Position numbers and translations under genes: made by a program. Below the pieces are notes generated by a model that saw nothing but the letters and a program-made list of their open reading frames with translations, did no database searches and was not told the origin of the DNA. Source: a bacterium (lineage in GTDB: Bacteria > Patescibacteriota > Minisyncoccia > Phycocordibacterales > JAKAEA01). Taken from it: a DNA stretch of 64,000 nucleotides. The first letter of the stretch is position 1. Each line of letters starts with the position of its first letter. The stretch is from contig JAKAEA010000001.1 of NCBI GenBank assembly GCA_021818465.1, forward strand, positions 41,972 through 105,971, given 5' to 3'. This document shows, one piece after another, positions 15,886 to 36,082 of this stretch.

Positions 15886-16506
15886 CTACTTGCGGAAGGC
15901 AAACCAATTGAAGATGCCGATGAAGCTCTCGGCCAAGCAGAGGTCCGTCTCGCGCTGCGAGTCGTACCACCAGACAGAGCAGGCGTAGCGGTTACTCTCG
16001 AAGGTGCAATCCGTTGTAGCCACCACATACATCGGATTTTGACCGAGCTTGGTGTGGAGCGCAGGATTGTGTTCACCGATGGCGAAGACTTCGCGCGGAT
16101 TGGTCCGATTGAGTCCTTTGGATTTGGCCCATCTGAGAGCTTTGTCCCAATTGCCGCCACCATTGGGGAAATTGAGGAGGATAATCTCCTGCTCAATAGT
16201 CCCCATTTCGACTGGAGGATACTGCCTACCAATCTTGCGGACATTGTGGTAAACCATCGTTTTGGTACTAGCGGCATCGATTGCCTCCTGCCATTCACGC
16301 TCCTGATTCACCTTTACCGTGAGCACACGGACACGAGCGCCTTTCGGCGGCTGTATGTCCTTGAGCTCCAGCTTGAGTGAATCAAGAAAACGGCTAAATG
16401 AGCCGTTGTCGAGGGCTTGCTGGAACTGCTGGCGACTGACGCCTTTGTCGATGGCCATATTACGAACGGAATCTGACTGACTGGAAGTAACAAGTTTGTC
16501 GCTCAT
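15886..16506 (-). CDS. hypothetical protein, distant paralog of the DGR target protein
   Basis: Weak collinear similarity to ORF 19195..19983 (LLNFPNGGGNWDKALRWAKSKG vs LLVDLGIITVPDDYDHATALAKFGKK; VWWYDSQRE vs VWDQKRDQ). Strong Shine-Dalgarno and a promoter/leader shared with 16764..17040. Confidence 0.45.
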   Translation of the reverse strand: MSDKLVTSSQSDSVRNMAIDKGVSRQQFQQALDNGSFSRFLDSLKLELKDIQPPKGARVRVLTVKVNQEREWQEAIDAASTKTMVYHNVRKIGRQYPPVEMGTIEQEIILLNFPNGGGNWDKALRWAKSKGLNRTNPREVFAIGEHNPALHTKLGQNPMYVVATTDCTFESNRYACSVWWYDSQRETDLCLAESFIGIFNWFAFRK

Positions 16507-16634
16507 AACTGACTCCTTTTATTGCGCTCACCTCAAGCTCCGAAACACTCGGCACCAGAGGCAGACAAGTTCAATGAACGTACTGGTTGATATAATGTAT
16601 CAAAAATACCGACTTGTCAAATATGGGTGCTCAC
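16504..16634 (-). promoter_or_regulatory. promoter plus conserved roughly 95-nt 5' leader, copy A
   Basis: TTGACA -35, a TATATC -10-like element, and a structured leader ending in the AAGGAG Shine-Dalgarno. About 90% identical to copy B at 17038..17168. Confidence 0.5.
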
Positions 16635-16763: not shown

Positions 16764-17040
16764 TCAAAAACACGGTGTCCTTATGATGTCTTCCTTACCA
16801 CAGAGTTTACAGTTACCTTCCACATCAAAAGTTGGATGCGGACACTGCCCCTGAACAACCGCGAGCTGCAGCTTGACTTTTGCAACCTTGTCAGCAAGAT
16901 CGTGTTGTTGCTCTCTGAGCTTGTTAAGTCGCTCCTGAATCGGACGCAGCTTCCTTTTAAGGGTCACAGTTTTTAGCTTCTTTTCATTCGGCGGTGTAAG
17001 ACTTGGGTAAGACACAGCAACAAACCTCTTGTAGTGCATA
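16764..17040 (-). CDS. small coiled-coil / C-terminal zinc-ribbon protein (start MHYKRF at 17040)
   Basis: ORF directly follows copy B of the duplicated leader. C-terminal CPHP...CKLCGK Cys cluster. Confidence 0.4.
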
Positions 17041-17168
17041 TAACTGACTCCTTTTATTGCGCCCACCTCAAGCTCCGAAACACTCGGCACCAGAGGCAGA
17101 CAAGTTCAATGAACGTACTGGTTTATATAAAATATTAAAAATACGTACTTGTCAAGGATGGGTCTTAA
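17038..17168 (-). promoter_or_regulatory. promoter plus conserved 5' leader, copy B
   Basis: Direct repeat of 16504..16634 with TTGACA -35. Confidence 0.5.
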
Positions 17169-17327
17169 CCGTGATACTAATAGTCACCCGCTTTTTGACC
17201 GACACCTAATCGAATCTACCTATACCCAGCTTTGTTTTTTGAGAGAGATGATGCGGAGAGAGGGGGTTGGGGTTTGAGGAGAATTTCGGAGAAAAACTAA
17301 ATTCAAAGGCTATCGTGACGGTAATAG

Positions 17328-18356
17328 TTACCCCGGAACAGCTGACAATTGCAGGGGAATGTTTTGCGCCGCAACATTTTCACAAATCATTTTGAGCCTC
17401 TTTTGCAATTGATAAGTGTTTCCATGTCCAAGAAGTCCGCGATACGAGCTTATCGTTTCTCGTTTTGGATAACCTTTCATCATACGAACTATTTTTCGTT
17501 TTGTCGTTGTCCTAATCTGCCGATGGTGAGGGAAATGGACCCAACCGAGAAAATCCACACCAGAGTCGTATGTTTTTATATAGACTTTGTGTTCATGAAG
17601 CGTGAGGTGTAGTTTTTCATTGAGAAATTTTTGTAGCCATGGCAAAAGCTTTTCTAAATATTCTTTGCTCTCAGACAGGATCGCAAAATCATCAGCATAG
17701 CGGAGATAGTATTTTATTCGCAACTCCTGTTTGAGGTACACATCAAATTCGTGCATATACACATTCACGAGAAGCTGGGATGTGAGATTGCCGAGCGGTA
17801 AACCAATGCCAGAAGTAGTCGTGTAAAAACTTGAGATAACTTTATGAATAAGCGCCCGGATATCTGGATCAACAATATGCCGTTCAAGAATTTTCATTAA
17901 AATCGCGTGGTCAACGCTCGCAAAGAATTTCCGTATATCGCATTTAAGCACGTAACATGTTCGTGTGTGATTTTTAGATACCTTTCGAGCAAAATCTCTA
18001 AAGCGATCGAGCGCCTTGTGCGTCCCTTTATTTTTTCGACAGGAATAGGAATCAAAAATAAATTGCTGATGGAAATGCCAGTACAATTCTTTATAAATAA
18101 GGTGGTGCAATATCCTATCACGAACCGTAGCTTTGTGAATGTTGCGTGGTTTCGGGTCAGAAATGTTGAAAGCTGAATATGAGCCGTGCGTATATGTTTT
18201 ATTTTTTAGATCGGAGTAGAGACTGGCAATATTGGTTGCTAGTTCTGCTTGAAATTTAATGACATCTTTTTTCTTTTTCTTGCCACGCAGAAACCGCTCC
18301 CATGTCAGGAGTAGATTTTCGATGGTAATGATAGAATTGTATGTATGAGTGAACAC
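17328..18356 (-). CDS. diversity-generating retroelement reverse transcriptase
   Basis: 342-aa RT with the DGR-type motif 4 IGLPLGNLTSQ and YADDFAIL. The size is typical of DGR RTs, and it sits next to an Avd gene and a TR/VR pair. Confidence 0.85.
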   Translation of the reverse strand: MFTHTYNSIITIENLLLTWERFLRGKKKKKDVIKFQAELATNIASLYSDLKNKTYTHGSYSAFNISDPKPRNIHKATVRDRILHHLIYKELYWHFHQQFIFDSYSCRKNKGTHKALDRFRDFARKVSKNHTRTCYVLKCDIRKFFASVDHAILMKILERHIVDPDIRALIHKVISSFYTTTSGIGLPLGNLTSQLLVNVYMHEFDVYLKQELRIKYYLRYADDFAILSESKEYLEKLLPWLQKFLNEKLHLTLHEHKVYIKTYDSGVDFLGWVHFPHHRQIRTTTKRKIVRMMKGYPKRETISSYRGLLGHGNTYQLQKRLKMICENVAAQNIPLQLSAVPG

Positions 18357-18391
18357 GGGCCATTAAGTACCCCCCCATTCCACTTGTTCTT

Positions 18392-18733
18392 GTGCGCGCG
18401 AAAGAGACGTACCAATTGTGGCATAGCTCGATCGTAAATTTAAAGCGCGTTGATCGCTACACGCTCGGTGCAAAGATAGACGATGCGTTTCTCTCGCTCC
18501 TCGAGCTCATATTTAGGGGCCGTTTTGCCTATGACAAATTCGAGAAGTTGTCGCTTGTTTCCCAGGCTATCGCAAAATCCGACCTCTTAAAATTCTTTTT
18601 GCAGCTCGGATGGGAGCATAAAGTGATTGACCACAAAAACTACGGTGCGCTCATTCTCCTCCTGGATGAAGTCGGCCGCATGCTCGATGGATGGAAGAAA
18701 AATCTTTCAGACAAAACTCCCGCCAATAAATAG
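18392..18733 (+). CDS. avd: DGR accessory variability determinant (Avd, four-helix-bundle protein)
   Basis: 113 aa. C-terminal LDEVGRMLDGWKK matches the Avd/23S-IVS family pattern (bAvd IAEVGRILGSW). GTG start. Divergent from the RT. Confidence 0.7.
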   Translation: MRAKETYQLWHSSIVNLKRVDRYTLGAKIDDAFLSLLELIFRGRFAYDKFEKLSLVSQAIAKSDLLKFFLQLGWEHKVIDHKNYGALILLLDEVGRMLDGWKKNLSDKTPANK

Positions 18734-18750
18734 CGGGAGAAATCATCTGA

Positions 18751-18872
18751 GTCGCAGAAGCAGAGGAAGGCATTGTCGTCGTTCCAAACGTTCTCGAAGT
18801 TACCGATGTTGAAGTTGAAGTCACCGTCCGAGTTGGCGTTCACGTTCGGCACCCTGTGGTTGCCGTCGGCAT
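18751..18872 (-). repeat. DGR template repeat (TR)
   Basis: 122-nt repeat aligning without gaps to 19222..19343. All 19 mismatches are at TR adenines on the coding strand. TR reading frame is Asn(AAC)-rich (NVNANSDGDFNFNIGNFENVWNDDN). Confidence 0.88.
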
Positions 18873-19123
18873 ACCCCCTCAAGCAATGTACGACGTGTCG
18901 TCGGGACCACCAAAAAGAGCACCAGCTCCCTTTTGTATTTTATTCCGAGTCTAAACCTCGTTAACACATCGCACCGACTTATTTGATTTTTTCATAAAGG
19001 CAGCCCTCATCCGCAAGGCGTACCCAGCGGACCACTCGCTGATTCCTAGTACGAGAATTTGACGGCATGAAGCCAGTAGCCGCATGCTCTATCTTATTCC
19101 AGACGCAATTGTACCTGATTTGT

Positions 19124-19160
19124 ATAAAAAAATTGAGCCCTCGCAGTGAAGCAAGGGCTC
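19124..19160 (-). terminator. rho-independent terminator of the DGR target gene
   Basis: gagccct-n12-agggctc hairpin followed by a U-run on the minus strand. An additional gggtcttagaccc hairpin lies right after the stop. Confidence 0.55.
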
Positions 19161-19194
19161 AAAGGGTCTAAGACCCGAAGAACATTCTGAGTGC

Positions 19195-19983
19195 CTAAGC
19201 GACTGAGGACTCGGGTTCCAAGTCGCAGAAGCAGAGGAAGGCATCGTCGACGCGCCAAACGTCCTCGAAGTCACCGATGTCGAAGCGGAAGACACCGTCC
19301 GAGTAGGCGAACACGCTCGGCACCCCGTGGTCGCCGACGGCATCTTGCCAAAGGCGTTCCTTCTCATCGAAGGAGCAATACCACTTACCTTTCGGCAGTT
19401 GGTCGCGCTTCTGGTCCCAGACGAGCGAGGCTCCCTGAGCGCCAACGTGAACCGCTTTCTGCGTGGCCAGGAAGGCCATGCGCTCCTCGGAAGTTGTGCT
19501 TCCACCAACGACTTGCTTGAACGCGCGAACGCGGAGCTTGTCGCCGGGTTTGAGGATACGGGTCGGATTCGGGAAGTTGGGATCGGTGATCGCTTCGTTG
19601 TAGTAATAGAACTTTTTACGGTTCTTCTTACCAAACTTGGCGAGCGCTGTCGCGTGATCGTAGTCATCCGGCACCGTAATGATGCCGAGGTCAACGAGCA
19701 GAGCGAACTTCTCCGTGGATTCTGCAGGGGCTTGAGGCTCCGGCTTCTTCCAGTCGCCGAACCGCGCTTCCCGATCGTCCGTGGAGAGGTTGTTGAACCG
19801 CTCCCATTGGCCGAGGGTGATTTGACCGCTTCGCACCTTTTGAAGGGTGTCGATTTGCAAACCAGCCAGTTTGGCCGCATTTGCGCCGATGACAGTACTC
19901 ATCGTTTGTCCTTTCTTTACAATGTGCTTCCGGAAATCTGCCGGATCAGGCGCAAGGGTATCTTGCGTGTCAAACAATATCAT
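19195..19983 (-). CDS. DGR target protein with C-terminal variable region (probable start MSTVIG at 19902)
   Basis: The VR occupies the last 50 or so codons before the stop. An internal ATG with a GAAAGGA Shine-Dalgarno and an upstream TTGACA promoter point to the 19902 start. The gene is locally GC-rich. Confidence 0.8.
   Translation of the reverse strand: MILFDTQDTLAPDPADFRKHIVKKGQTMSTVIGANAAKLAGLQIDTLQKVRSGQITLGQWERFNNLSTDDREARFGDWKKPEPQAPAESTEKFALLVDLGIITVPDDYDHATALAKFGKKNRKKFYYYNEAITDPNFPNPTRILKPGDKLRVRAFKQVVGGSTTSEERMAFLATQKAVHVGAQGASLVWDQKRDQLPKGKWYCSFDEKERLWQDAVGDHGVPSVFAYSDGVFRFDIGDFEDVWRVDDAFLCFCDLEPESSVA
19222..19343 (-). repeat. DGR variable repeat (VR)
   Basis: Cognate of the TR. 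Differences are confined to TR-adenine positions. The 23-nt 3' end is identical in TR and VR. Confidence 0.88.
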
Positions 19984-20006
19984 ATAAGATGATATATGTC
20001 AACGGG

Positions 20007-20078
20007 GTGCCTAATGGGACTCGAACCCATACTGCCGCTTCCACAGAGCGAAGTGCTAACCATTACACCATAGGCACC
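20007..20078 (-). tRNA. tRNA-His(GTG)
   Basis: Cloverleaf with extra G-1, anticodon loop CTGTGGA, TTCGAGT T-loop. No encoded CCA. Confidence 0.8.
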
Positions 20079-20508
20079 ATGAGCACTGTTATACCAAACT
20101 TGATAGAGCAACGCTAGGCACACAAGAGCGCCTTGGAAAAAATAATGGTGCGCCGAAAGAAAAATTCAAATAAAAAACTAGCGAAAAAACTAATCGATAA
20201 AATGTATACAGAGCAACGCCTCGGGCGGACTATATTTCCCGAGGCGTTGTGTCGCACAACCACATACTGCCTGCTGCATTATGAGAAGTAAAATAAACGG
20301 CAAGCCAGCCTCACGCACGAGGTCACCTTACCGTACAATAGCGCATACCAACCCCCTCGAAACTTTCTCGCCCCGTATTAACGGAACCGTCACCTCACAT
20401 TACTGCAAAGCCGTCGTGGGAATTGTCTTGATTACGTCAAACAGCACTATTGTCTGTACGTGTCCCTAAATCTACATACTCTAACACCCCACTAGCACTA
20501 AAGTTTCA

Positions 20509-35033: not shown

Positions 35034-36029
35034 ATGGAACCGAATGCTTTAAAAACAGGTACTATTACAACAACGGAGCGCTTATTTAACCCGACAACAC
35101 GATTGCCTACCGCACTCATCGATGTATCTCGTCTGTTTCCCTCTCTTCCTCCAAAAACCACAATCTTGGCAAAATTATCTGGTGGTAACATAAAATCTTT
35201 GCCTGTCTTCAATATGCTAGCCGAGGCACAGAAACGCGGCGAGTTAGAAGGCGTTGACACGCTTGTCGAAGCAACATCGGGCAACACAGGAGAACAACTC
35301 ACTATACTTGCTAAATTTTTTGGCATTAAAAATGTTGTTACTATTGTGCCTGAAGACATTGCTCCCGGAAAACTTCAAAGACTTCACATCGCTGGGGCAA
35401 AGATTAAGTATTCCAACGAAGGAGAGCGCGCTACTGATACCGCTCGCAGACTCGGAAAACGCCCCGGCTGGCTAAACTTAGATCAATACACCAATGCTGA
35501 CAACTGGGGGGCATTTGAAAAATTTTTTGCACCAGAAGTGTGGCAACAAACTAACGGTGGCCTAACCATTTTCTGTGCAACGCTAGGCACCACAGGCACA
35601 CTACTTGGATGTGAAAAATTCTTTAAAACTCTTGATCAAAAACCCTGTATTCTTGGAGCGACATGCGATACGCTTGATCAAGTGCCAGGAGCACGTAGCA
35701 CTAAACGACTAGCTGAAATTGGTTTTGATTGCAAAACAGCAACATTTCCGATTGAGCTTGATATCTCCGCACCTATATCATTTAGTATGAGTATGGTATT
35801 AAACCGCCACAATGTGCTGGCCGGTCCTACAAGCGGATTGGCATGTTATGCGCTTCTTCGTTTTATCTATCGAACACACCGTGAAAAGAAACTCGATCAG
35901 TATCGCAATAAAGAAGGAGACGTGGTAGCGGTGTTTGTATGTCCTGACACTCCTCTTCCATACTTAGACAAATACACTACTCACCTCCCAGGCTATAAAC
36001 CCGTAGAGGAAGTAACGAAGTTCTTGTAA
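35034..36029 (+). CDS. PLP-dependent cysteine synthase / tryptophan-synthase-beta superfamily enzyme
   Basis: PALP-fold motifs (EATSGNTGEQL and a Gly-rich loop). Confidence 0.6.
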   Translation: MEPNALKTGTITTTERLFNPTTRLPTALIDVSRLFPSLPPKTTILAKLSGGNIKSLPVFNMLAEAQKRGELEGVDTLVEATSGNTGEQLTILAKFFGIKNVVTIVPEDIAPGKLQRLHIAGAKIKYSNEGERATDTARRLGKRPGWLNLDQYTNADNWGAFEKFFAPEVWQQTNGGLTIFCATLGTTGTLLGCEKFFKTLDQKPCILGATCDTLDQVPGARSTKRLAEIGFDCKTATFPIELDISAPISFSMSMVLNRHNVLAGPTSGLACYALLRFIYRTHREKKLDQYRNKEGDVVAVFVCPDTPLPYLDKYTTHLPGYKPVEEVTKFL

Positions 36030-36043
36030 TAAAAAAATAATTT

Positions 36044-36082
36044 AGCGCGATGTTCTTAATGAAAACATCGCGCTTTTTCTTT
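36044..36082 (+). terminator. rho-independent terminator
   Basis: agcgcgatg...catcgcgct hairpin followed by a T-run. Confidence 0.6.

What the first reader, a model, noticed from the sequence alone, without database searches (positions are those of the whole stretch)
17328..19983. Complete diversity-generating retroelement (RT + Avd + TR + VR-bearing target gene)
Four mutually supporting elements sit within 2.7 kb. First, a 342-aa reverse transcriptase carries DGR-type motifs (IGLPLGNLTSQ, YADDFAIL) rather than group II intron ones. Second, a 113-aa four-helix-bundle Avd homolog is present (EVGRMLDGW). Third, a 122-nt template repeat lies between avd and the target gene. Fourth, a 122-nt variable repeat lies at the C-terminal end of ORF 19195..19983. 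The repeats align without gaps and differ at 19 positions. At every one of them the TR base on the coding (minus) strand is an adenine, which is the diagnostic signature of DGR mutagenic homing. The TR-encoded peptide is AAC/Asn-rich. This is a candidate protein-hypervariation system in a CPR-like genome and probably the most interesting thing in the window.
Basis: partly seen in the sequence, partly recalled or inferred. Interest (0 to 1): 0.9.

Follow-up and report, generated by a model that had tools for sequence, protein, structure and literature searches.

The report
CPR-type diversity-generating retroelement with structured leader
This is a genuine, complete diversity-generating retroelement of the type already known from Patescibacteria; the less expected part is a conserved, folded ~215-nt RNA just upstream of its template repeat.

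Summary
TR (18750..18872) and VR (19221..19343) align without gaps over 123 nt. They differ at 17 positions, not 19, and all 17 are TR adenines on the minus strand (hypergeometric P = 9e-13). All lie at codon positions 1-2. The RT is closest to the Bordetella DGR RT. Avd is recognisable, but it lies on the opposite strand. That TR-(avd)-RT order is the published "B3" architecture typical of CPR DGRs, so the element is a new member of a known kind.

One feature appears in neither Rfam nor the papers I could search. Between the target's terminator and TR lies a ~215-nt leader (18884..19097, minus strand) with a conserved -10 box. It has about 60 covarying base pairs and is shared by DGRs with different targets. 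The region downstream of TR (antisense avd) shows only one hairpin. I infer that the RNA scaffold lies 5' of the template in this lineage, not 3' as in Bordetella phage.

The parts
17328..18356 (-). DGR reverse transcriptase gene (342 aa, GTG start)
   Evidence: Pfam RVT_1, E 3.6e-27. The best PDB hit is 8ub7_A at 137 bits, against 72 bits for group II RT. PHROG 1423 scores 356 bits. The motifs IGLPLGNLTSQ and YADDFAIL are present.
18370..18376 (.). Homopolymer (C7 on +, G7 on the sense strand) between the avd start and the RT start
   Evidence: Its length ranges from about 5 to 14 in 45 related loci, including near-identical ones (alignment A5). It may be the RT ribosome-binding site or a slippage-prone tract. 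Function was not tested.
18392..18733 (+). avd accessory gene (113 aa from GTG), divergent from the RT and antisense to the TR transcript
   Evidence: Pfam bAvd 43.5 bits (cutoff 40). NCBIfam DivGenRetAVD 50 bits, below its cutoff of 80. PHROG 'Avd protein of DGR', E 5.8e-15. The same reversed orientation is seen in every related cassette.
18713..18739 (-). Hairpin CTCCCGC-N9-GCGGGAG followed by UUUU, 10 nt after TR; overlaps the avd stop codon and last codons
   Evidence: Terminator-like site. It is conserved, with compensatory changes (G-C / A-U / U-A at one pair), in 57 sequences. Its position matches the 'Avd-binding stem-loop just downstream of TR' reported for many DGRs.
18750..18872 (-). 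Template repeat (TR), 123 nt, encodes ADGNHRVPNVNANSDGDFNFNIGNFENVWNDDNAFLCFCD
18884..19097 (-). Conserved structured leader RNA immediately 5' of TR (about 215 nt, 59 modelled base pairs)
   Evidence: RNAalifold on 57 sequences. 96.1% of cells are paired against 37-44% in slid controls, and 568 double-change cells against 76-115. Covariance model R1 gives a single window hit of 209 bits and hits untrained DGRs with other targets at 62-108 bits. There is no Rfam match.
19108..19113 (-). -10-like box (TACAAT; TATAAT or TATACT in relatives) upstream of the leader
   Evidence: Conserved column block in alignments A2 and A3. The promoter role is inferred.
19126..19162 (-). Intrinsic-terminator-like hairpin plus T7 after the target gene
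   Evidence: 12-bp stem followed by TTTTTTT. Conserved in relatives.
19164..19176 (-). Small hairpin GGGTC-TTA-GACCC downstream of VR
   Evidence: Seen in the sequence and conserved in most relatives. It is a candidate counterpart of the inverted repeat downstream of IMH. Not tested.
19187..19212 (-). Three tandem ~8-nt units ending in CTYRG (CTCAG, CTTAG, CTCAG) just 3' of VR
   Evidence: Conserved at the DNA level whether or not it is coding, in 47 related loci. Also present next to a target (L005) that has no DGR nearby. Function unknown.
19221..19343 (-). Variable repeat (VR), encodes AVGDHGVPSVFAYSDGVFRFDIGDFEDVWRVDDAFLCFCD
19195..19902 (-). DGR target gene (235 aa): N-terminal helical module, linker, C-type-lectin-like domain ending in VR
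19974..20002 (-). Promoter-like site (TTGACA-17-TATTGT) for the target gene, abutting tRNA-His
   Evidence: tRNA-His lies at 20004..20077.

Best explanation
This is a chromosomal diversity-generating retroelement of the Patescibacteria type. The order on the minus strand is target(VR) - terminator - promoter - structured leader - TR - hairpin - reversed avd - RT.

Shown:
- The RT, Avd, TR and VR are all present.
- The TR/VR differences are restricted to TR adenines at codon positions 1-2.
- The C-terminal 40 residues of a C-type-lectin-like protein are the diversified part.
- Near-identical alleles in close relatives differ only there.
- A ~215-nt RNA with strong base-pair covariation lies directly 5' of TR. 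G-U pairs place it on the TR sense strand.
- A conserved hairpin lies 10 nt 3' of TR.
- The antisense-avd stretch beyond that hairpin has no detectable conserved structure.

Inferred:
- A discrete non-coding RNA of about 385 nt (leader + TR + hairpin) is made from its own -10 box.
- The RT-Avd complex binds this RNA.
- cDNA synthesis starts near the 3' end of TR, with misincorporation opposite adenines.
- The cDNA replaces the VR by homing.
- The leader supplies the scaffold and priming functions that the spacer (Sp) RNA downstream of TR supplies in Bordetella phage. The DGR RNA would therefore be permuted, with a retron-like topology: structured RNA 5' of the template and a short pairing to the linker 3' of the template.
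For: DGR identity
- 17 of 17 mismatches fall at TR adenines, and 92 of 92 non-A positions are identical. P = 9e-13.
- TR has no A at codon position 3 and carries 9 AAC codons.
- The RT is closest to 8ub7_A, which I take to be the Bordetella DGR RT. PHROG 1423 scores 356 bits and the PHROG Avd family gives E 6e-15. Pfam bAvd is above its cutoff.

Conservation of the cassette
- 18 related genome loci have the same cassette. Each has a TR/VR pair with 9-20 mismatches, nearly all at A.
- About 75 metagenome loci have the same order of parts.

Diversification in relatives
- P0128 and P0129 differ at 0 of 213 residues upstream of the VR but at 13 of 41 within it. P0122 and P0124 differ at 0 of 186 and 8 of 41.

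Target fold

Leader RNA
- 49 of 73 predicted pairs show compensatory changes.
- 96% of cells are paired against about 40% in slid controls, and 0 of 500 shuffles reach the observed values.
- The covariance model finds the leader in untrained DGRs that have different VR classes.
- RNAalifold finds only the 8-pair hairpin between TR and the RT start.
- A short leader:linker pairing extends 2.5 pairs on average, against 1.65 +/- 0.17 when partners are shuffled (0 of 5000 shuffles reach it).
Against: - There are no population data for this locus. The only other copies, L001 and the source assembly, are identical. Current activity here is therefore unproven.
- Avd has no ATG start and scores below the NCBIfam cutoff.
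- The last 24 nt of TR and VR are identical. No IMH/IMH* distinction is visible, and the target-recognition element is not identified.
- The promoter, the RNA ends and the role of the leader are inferred from sequence alone.
- The hairpin plus U-tract could be an Avd-binding stem-loop rather than a terminator.
- The leader:linker pairing is only weakly supported.
Confidence: 0.85

Rival explanations
1. A recently silenced or fossil DGR. All parts are still readable, but the element no longer diversifies the target. The VR is a frozen product of past homing.
For: - Only identical copies of this allele were found.
- In several sister clusters the VR is fixed while the rest of the protein varies (clusters 3-5).
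- About two thirds of target homologs have no RT or avd within 5 kb. Some of these keep only truncated leader remnants (L015, L022, L050). Loss of the retroelement is therefore common in this family.
Against: - The RT ORF is intact and keeps its catalytic YADD motif. The Avd ORF, the leader (209 bits, full length) and the hairpin are also intact.
- 0 of 92 non-A positions differ between TR and VR, which argues for recent homing.
Confidence: 0.15
2. The conserved leader is not part of the reverse-transcription machinery. It is instead a regulatory RNA, for example a ligand- or protein-sensing 5' element that controls transcription through TR into the RT, or a stand-alone small RNA.
For: - The leader is followed, after TR, by a terminator-like hairpin.
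- The RT lies further downstream with no obvious promoter of its own.
- Read-through control of RT expression is therefore conceivable.
Against: - The leader always directly abuts TR and travels with the RT/Avd clade across different target classes.
- No other conserved RNA structure is available to play the role that Sp plays in Bordetella phage (Handa et al.).
- The two roles do not exclude each other.
Confidence: 0.2
3. The RT belongs to a group II intron, a retron or a defence RT, and the repeat is an unrelated duplication.
For: The RT gives sub-threshold matches to the group II (148 bits, cutoff 300), Drt3a and retron models.
Against: - All these scores are far below the curated cutoffs.
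- The best solved relative is the Bordetella DGR RT.
- No group II or retron RNA family was found in Rfam.
- Avd is adjacent to the RT.
- The mismatches are A-restricted, with P = 9e-13.
Confidence: 0.01

Closest known systems
CPR-set DGRs with architecture B3, TR-(avd)-RT (Wu et al. 2018, PMC5758913); 'DGR clade 2', cellular DGRs restricted to Patescibacteria (Roux et al. 2021, PMC8144416)
   Same: [quoted passage not shown]
- The host is a Patescibacteria genome and the setting is chromosomal.
- The target has no recognisable transmembrane segment or Pfam domain.
- The VR lies at the C-terminus.
   Different: Nothing essential differs. This is a further member. The papers I could read do not describe a structured leader upstream of TR. 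Paul et al. 2017 could not be retrieved.
Bordetella phage BPP-1 DGR (mtd-avd-TR-brt)
   Same: - The RT is homologous (137 bits to 8ub7_A, which I take to be bRT).
- Avd is present.
- The TR/VR differences are adenine-specific and sit in AAC codons.
- The VR lies at the C-terminal end of a C-type-lectin-like domain.
- A stem-loop lies just 3' of TR.
   Different: - avd is inverted and lies between TR and the RT.
- The target is a cellular protein, not a phage tail fibre.
- The terminal 24 nt of TR and VR are identical.
- In BPP-1 the essential structured RNA (Sp, 140 nt; Rfam-type motif RT-10) is 3' of TR and only 20 nt are needed 5' of it. Here the conserved structure is 5' of TR, and the 3' side is antisense avd with no detectable structure.
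Retron msr-msd RNA
   Same: The topology I infer is the same. Structured RNA lies 5' of the template, and a short pairing joins the 5' part to the sequence 3' of the template. That would place a priming nucleotide next to the start of cDNA synthesis.
   Different: - The RT is not a retron RT (68 bits, cutoff 235).
- No msDNA is known here.
- The template is a protein-coding repeat that is copied into a target gene.
- The resemblance is an inference only.
DGR variable proteins with C-type-lectin fold (Mtd 1yu0, TvpA 2y3c, FGE-type)
   Same: - The predicted fold class is the same.
- The variable residues lie in the last ~40 residues.
- Invariant scaffold residues are interspersed among them.
   Different: - No sequence similarity is detectable (Pfam, NCBIfam, PHROGs and PDB are all negative).
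- The VR motif (xVPxVxxxSDGxFxFxLGxFExVWxxxxAFLCFCD) differs from the CLec1-3 logos as I recall them. That comparison is from memory and was not tested.

Membership tests
Diversity-generating retroelement | RT of the DGR lineage (motif [I/L]GxxxSQ and YxDD; closest to bRT) | tested here: met
   IGLPLGNLTSQ and YADD are present. The best PDB hit is 8ub7_A, E 1e-38, well ahead of group II and retron RTs. PHROG 1423 scores 356 bits. No formal phylogeny was made.
Diversity-generating retroelement | Imperfect TR/VR repeat whose differences are confined to TR adenines | tested here: met
   17 of 17 mismatches are at A and 92 of 92 non-A positions are identical. P = 9e-13.
Diversity-generating retroelement | VR inside a protein-coding target, with TR adenines at codon positions 1-2 (AAC-rich) | tested here: met
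   The VR covers the last 40 codons of the fold. TR adenines fall 12 / 18 / 0 by codon position, and there are 9 AAC codons.
Diversity-generating retroelement | Accessory protein Avd next to the RT | tested here: met
   Pfam bAvd 43.5 bits, above its cutoff of 40. PHROG Avd gives E 5.8e-15. NCBIfam NF033474 scores 50 bits, below its cutoff of 80.
Diversity-generating retroelement | IMH at the VR end distinct from IMH* at the TR end, with an inverted repeat downstream of VR | tested here: inconclusive
   The last 24 nt of TR and VR are identical. Downstream of VR lie a conserved triple CTYRG motif, a 5-bp hairpin and a terminator. Which of these, if any, marks the target is unknown.
Diversity-generating retroelement | Ongoing mutagenic homing (VR variants within a population) | not testable with these tools
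   No reads are available for this locus, and the other copies are identical. In close relatives, alleles with 0 of 213 differences outside the VR differ at 13 of 41 residues inside it.
Diversity-generating retroelement | Variable region displayed on a C-type-lectin (or Ig) fold | tested here: inconclusive
CPR-type DGR, architecture B3 (Wu et al. 2018) | Core order TR-(avd)-RT with avd on the reverse strand, in a CPR host | tested here: met
   The definition is in PMC5758913. Homologs come from Patescibacteria MAGs.
Group II intron | Ribozyme domains flanking an RT/maturase ORF that passes the family threshold | tested here: not met
   There is no group II RNA family in the Rfam scan at E <= 5. 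TIGR04416 scores 148 bits, below its cutoff of 300.
Retron | Retron-type RT with an adjacent msr/msd RNA | tested here: not met
   The retron RT model scores 68 bits, below its cutoff of 235. No retron RNA was found in Rfam.
Rfam RT-associated RNA motifs (RT-1 to RT-19, including RT-10 = BPP-1 spacer) | Match to the covariance model | tested here: not met
   No such hit on either strand of 17000..20300 at E <= 5. The motif description is in PMC5737381.

The most novel reading that the evidence does not exclude
The ~215-nt leader is an undescribed RNA family that forms an integral part of Patescibacteria (clade 2 / B3) DGRs. It would be the functional counterpart of the Bordetella Sp RNA, moved to the 5' side of the template. 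On this reading, inversion of avd went together with a permutation of the DGR RNA. cDNA synthesis would then be primed from, or positioned by, a 5' domain, as in retrons.
Probability: 0.35. Interest if true: 0.7.

Novelty: new member of a known kind. Interest (0 to 1): 0.45.

Why it matters
The DGR itself adds one more example to a well-populated class, so it matters little on its own.

The conserved leader matters more. Mechanistic knowledge of DGR reverse transcription comes almost entirely from one phage element, whose essential RNA lies downstream of the template. CPR DGRs are among the most numerous cellular DGRs. Their inverted avd leaves no room for such a downstream RNA.

A well-defined, strongly covarying RNA upstream of TR gives a concrete construct (window 18713..19100, minus strand) for testing three things:
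- how these elements prime and stop cDNA synthesis;
- whether the RNA scaffold can be permuted;
- how to reprogram a compact CPR DGR for directed evolution.

The target family (more than 600 members, about 235 aa, no signal peptide) is also a tractable model for asking what non-membrane CPR variable proteins bind.

Tried and rejected
- **Rfam scan.** I scanned 17000..20300 on both strands at E <= 5. Only tRNA-His was a real hit. There was no RT-x, group II or retron RNA.
- **Family searches for the target.** Pfam, NCBIfam, PHROGs and a PDB sequence and profile search all found nothing.
- **Extra VRs.** A scan of the window that ignored A positions found only the TR and VR themselves.
- **Sp-like structure downstream of TR.** RNAalifold on 45 sequences running from TR to the RT start found only the hairpin.
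- **RNAalifold's long-range pairing.** It paired the invariant GTCG with a CGGC inside TR. This shows no double changes, and TR is constrained by coding, so I do not rely on it (helix 6).
- **First re-anchoring of the leader:linker test.** It was off by one base and was redone.
- **Literature.** Paul et al. 2017 (PMC5436926) and a 2026 preprint could not be retrieved. The supplements of Wu et al. 2018 are not held. I therefore could not check whether this VR is one of their classes UVR1-6.
- **Prophage context.** The flanking genes give no PHROG hits. In L002 the cassette sits among housekeeping genes.
Full report
**1. Observation**

Reading 17000..20400 and listing ORFs shows the following parts:
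- a 342-aa ORF on the minus strand (17328..18356);
- a 113-aa ORF on the plus strand (18392..18733);
- a 262-aa minus-strand ORF (19195..19983).

A direct comparison at offset 471 gives a gapless repeat of 123 nt, 18750..18872 against 19221..19343. There are 17 mismatches, not the 19 reported. On the + strand they are 9 T>C, 6 T>A and 2 T>G. Every one is therefore an adenine of the 18750..18872 copy on the minus (coding) strand.

That copy has 31 A among 123 bases. The hypergeometric probability that 17 mismatches all fall on A is 8.9e-13. All 92 non-A positions are identical.

In the frame of the target:
- the mismatches lie at codon positions 1 (10) and 2 (7);
- TR has no adenine at position 3;
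- TR holds 9 AAC codons and 1 AAT codon;
- 14 codons are changed.

No other TR- or VR-like copy exists in the 64-kb window.

**2. The proteins**

RT:
- It matches Pfam RVT_1.
- Its best solved relative is 8ub7_A, a 328-aa reverse transcriptase (E 1e-38, 137 bits). I take this to be Bordetella phage bRT from its length and from the series of entries. I could not confirm the entry code in the paper.
- Group II intron RT scores 72 bits and retron RT 68 bits.
- NCBIfam models for group II, Drt and retron RTs all score far below their cutoffs.
- PHROG 1423 scores 356 bits.

Avd:
- The plus-strand ORF passes the Pfam bAvd threshold, 43.5 bits against 40.
- It matches the PHROG 'Avd protein of DGR', E 5.8e-15.
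- It reaches only 50 of the 80 bits required by NCBIfam NF033474.
- Its reading frame is open from 18353, but the first start codon is GTG at 18392. Relatives likewise lack an upstream ATG.

**3. Orientation of avd**

avd is on the strand opposite to the RT, TR and target. This is not an oddity of this locus. In every related cassette I fetched the order is target(+) TR(+) avd(-) RT(+). That covers about 26 genome loci and about 75 metagenome loci.

Wu et al. 2018 define this arrangement as architecture B3, 'TR-(avd)-RT'. [quoted passage not shown] Roux et al. 2021 describe a DGR clade 2 of cellular elements restricted to Patescibacteria. Its targets usually have no recognisable domain (PMC8144416). 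The element is therefore a typical member of a published class.

**4. The target**

The gene probably starts at ATG 19902, giving 235 aa:
- most homologs start at the equivalent residue;
- a promoter-like TTGACA-17-TATTGT site at 20002..19974 lies downstream of the 19983 ATG.

The protein has 622 detected homologs (E <= 0.001). All named ones are from Patescibacteria/Paceibacteria MAGs, and none has a Pfam domain. The best 120 hits are 64-100% identical to it.

The alignment is strongly conserved except at C-terminal positions that are Asn codons in TR. The consensus is DAxGxHRVPxVxxxSDGxFxFxLGxFExVWxxxxAFLCFCD.

An AlphaFold model built on this alignment has mean pLDDT 77.7. It shows:
- an N-terminal helical module (residues 7-48);
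- a disordered linker (49-62);
- an alpha/beta domain.

I saw no N-terminal hydrophobic stretch by eye. I did not run a signal-peptide predictor.

**5. Evidence for diversification**

- In 18 related genome loci the TR/VR pairs (116-132 nt) carry 9-20 mismatches, nearly all at TR adenines.
- Within one 90% cluster, P0128 and P0129 are identical over the 213 residues upstream of the VR but differ at 13 of 41 VR residues. P0122 and P0124 show 0 of 186 and 8 of 41.
- For the window's own allele I found only identical copies. Contig L001 from SRR13299515 equals window 17094..20061 with 0 mismatches. The source assembly is GCA_027341405.1, contig DAIEME010000001.1.
- Activity at this locus is therefore inferred from intact parts and from the perfect identity of non-A positions. 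It is not shown.

**6. Anatomy between VR and RT (minus strand, 5' to 3')**

After the VR come:
- three tandem ~8-nt units ending in CTYRG (19212..19187). They are conserved whether or not they are coding, and are also present next to a target (L005) that has no DGR nearby;
- a small hairpin GGGTC-TTA-GACCC (19176..19164);
- a strong terminator-like hairpin with T7 (19162..19126);
- a conserved -10-like box (TACAAT here, TATAAT or TATACT in relatives);
- a ~215-nt leader;
- TR;
- a 10-nt linker;
- a hairpin followed by UUUU (18739..18713) that overlaps the avd stop codon;
- antisense avd;
- a G7 tract;
- the RT start.

**7. The leader is a structured RNA**

- A motif taken from the leader (GAAAAAA-N7-10-GTCGGTG-N25-55-TAARATWCA) retrieved 97 metagenome stretches. 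About 75 of them sit at the same place in the same cassette.
- RNAalifold on 57 sequences less than 95% identical to each other predicts 73 pairs. 49 of them show compensatory double changes.
- Counted on that alignment, 96.1% of cells are paired against 37-44% when partners are slid by 1-3 columns. There are 568 double-change cells against 76-115. No shuffle out of 500 reaches the observed values.
- Frequent conserved G-U pairs place the RNA on the TR sense strand.
- A covariance model of the leader alone (215 positions, 59 pairs) gives one hit in the window (18884..19097, 209 bits). It gives full-length hits of 62-108 bits in untrained, more distant DGRs whose VRs belong to other classes (L062, L066, L075, L077).
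- The model also finds truncated remnants next to 'orphan' targets that have lost the RT and avd (L015, L022, L050).
- Rfam 15 has no match. That library should include the RT-1 to RT-19 motifs of Weinberg et al. 2017, one of which (RT-10) is the Bordetella spacer.
- Four literature searches found no description of such a leader.

**8. Comparison with the Bordetella mechanism**

In BPP-1 the RNA needed for cis-primed reverse transcription is 20 nt upstream of TR, TR itself, and 140 nt of spacer (Sp) downstream. Sp forms the following elements:
- an Avd-binding stem-loop just 3' of TR;
- the template:primer duplex with the priming A56;
- the stop element;
- the thumb ring;
- a bRT-binding stem-loop.

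(Handa et al., bioRxiv 10.1101/2023.10.23.563531.)

Those authors report putative Avd-binding stem-loops just downstream of TR in 207 of 278 DGRs, including CPR elements. They based this on 40 nt upstream and 100 nt downstream of TR.

Here the conserved hairpin 10 nt after TR fits that description. It also looks like an intrinsic terminator. Beyond it, in the roughly 380 nt of antisense avd up to the RT start, RNAalifold on 45 sequences finds no conserved pair.

I therefore infer that the scaffold functions reside in the 5' leader. A short pairing between the leader segment after its invariant A-run (AAAUCA) and the linker 3' of TR (UGAUUU) shows some covariation. The first pair is U-A in 21, U-G in 8 and C-G in 11 of 48 distinct combinations. 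Mean extension is 2.52 pairs, against 1.65 +/- 0.17 with shuffled partners (0 of 5000) and 0.25-1.12 in shifted registers. This would bring the leader core next to the site where cDNA synthesis should start, a retron-like topology. The step is suggestive only.

**9. Rivals**

- *A silent, recently inactivated element.* It cannot be excluded without reads. Loss of the retroelement is common in this family.
- *A purely regulatory role for the leader.* It is possible, and it is compatible with a scaffold role.
- *Group II intron, retron or chance duplication.* These are contradicted.

**10. Verdict**

The finding is real and correctly interpreted.

The added value is the conserved structured leader 5' of TR, together with the absence of conserved structure 3' of it. 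This suggests that the DGR RNA of this lineage is organised differently from the only experimentally characterised one.

Noticed in passing
window 16505-16628 and 17040-17163: A 124-nt direct repeat (93% identical) covers the upstream regions and starts of two hypothetical genes just downstream of the RT. The independent 2968-bp contig L001 ends inside it (window 17094) and, at the other end, inside tRNA-His (20061). The DGR cassette is therefore bounded by assembly-breaking repeats.
   Followed up: partly
window 18370-18376; alignment A5 columns ~440-470: A homopolymeric G tract (sense strand) lies between the divergent avd and RT starts. It is 7 long here and about 5-14 in 45 relatives, and it differs even between near-identical loci. 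It could be the RT ribosome-binding site, or a slippage-prone switch for RT/Avd expression.
   Followed up: partly
window 19187-19212; 47 related loci: Three (sometimes four or five) tandem ~8-nt units ending in CTTRG lie immediately 3' of the VR. They are conserved at the DNA level whether the stop codon falls before or inside them. It is not a hairpin. It is a candidate target-recognition or protein-binding element.
   Followed up: partly
L005, L007, L011 and others; L015 5794-5926, L022 5805-5948, L050 5651-5773: About two thirds of target homologs have no RT or avd within 5 kb, yet they carry diversified (non-Asn) VRs. Three of them keep truncated leader remnants after the gene. This suggests repeated loss of the retroelement, or action in trans.
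   Followed up: partly
L072 5001-6026; also L057-L079: The first ~45 residues of the target (AAKLAGLQIDTLxKxRxGxxTLxQWExF) recur at the N-terminus of other proteins with different C-terminal parts. L072 and L076 lie next to more distant RTs (46% identity) and have different leaders. This looks like a shared N-terminal module of Paceibacteria DGR targets, of unknown function.
   Followed up: partly
window 19195-19902 versus 17328-18356: The target gene is 58% G+C, against 40% for the RT, 47% for avd and 42% for the whole window. I have no explanation for this.
   Followed up: no
L010, L027, L089, L156, L159: Some cassettes carry two paralogous target genes upstream of one TR-(avd)-RT unit.
   Followed up: no
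window 35998-36077 (+): Weak hit of the leader model (14.5 bits, E 0.046). It is probably chance.
   Followed up: no
L177 (GCA_027341405.1, DAIEME010000001.1 486588-489376): In the gene calls held for the source assembly, no gene is listed between the target and the RT. avd appears to be unannotated there, although it was called on the identical Logan contig L001.
   Followed up: no
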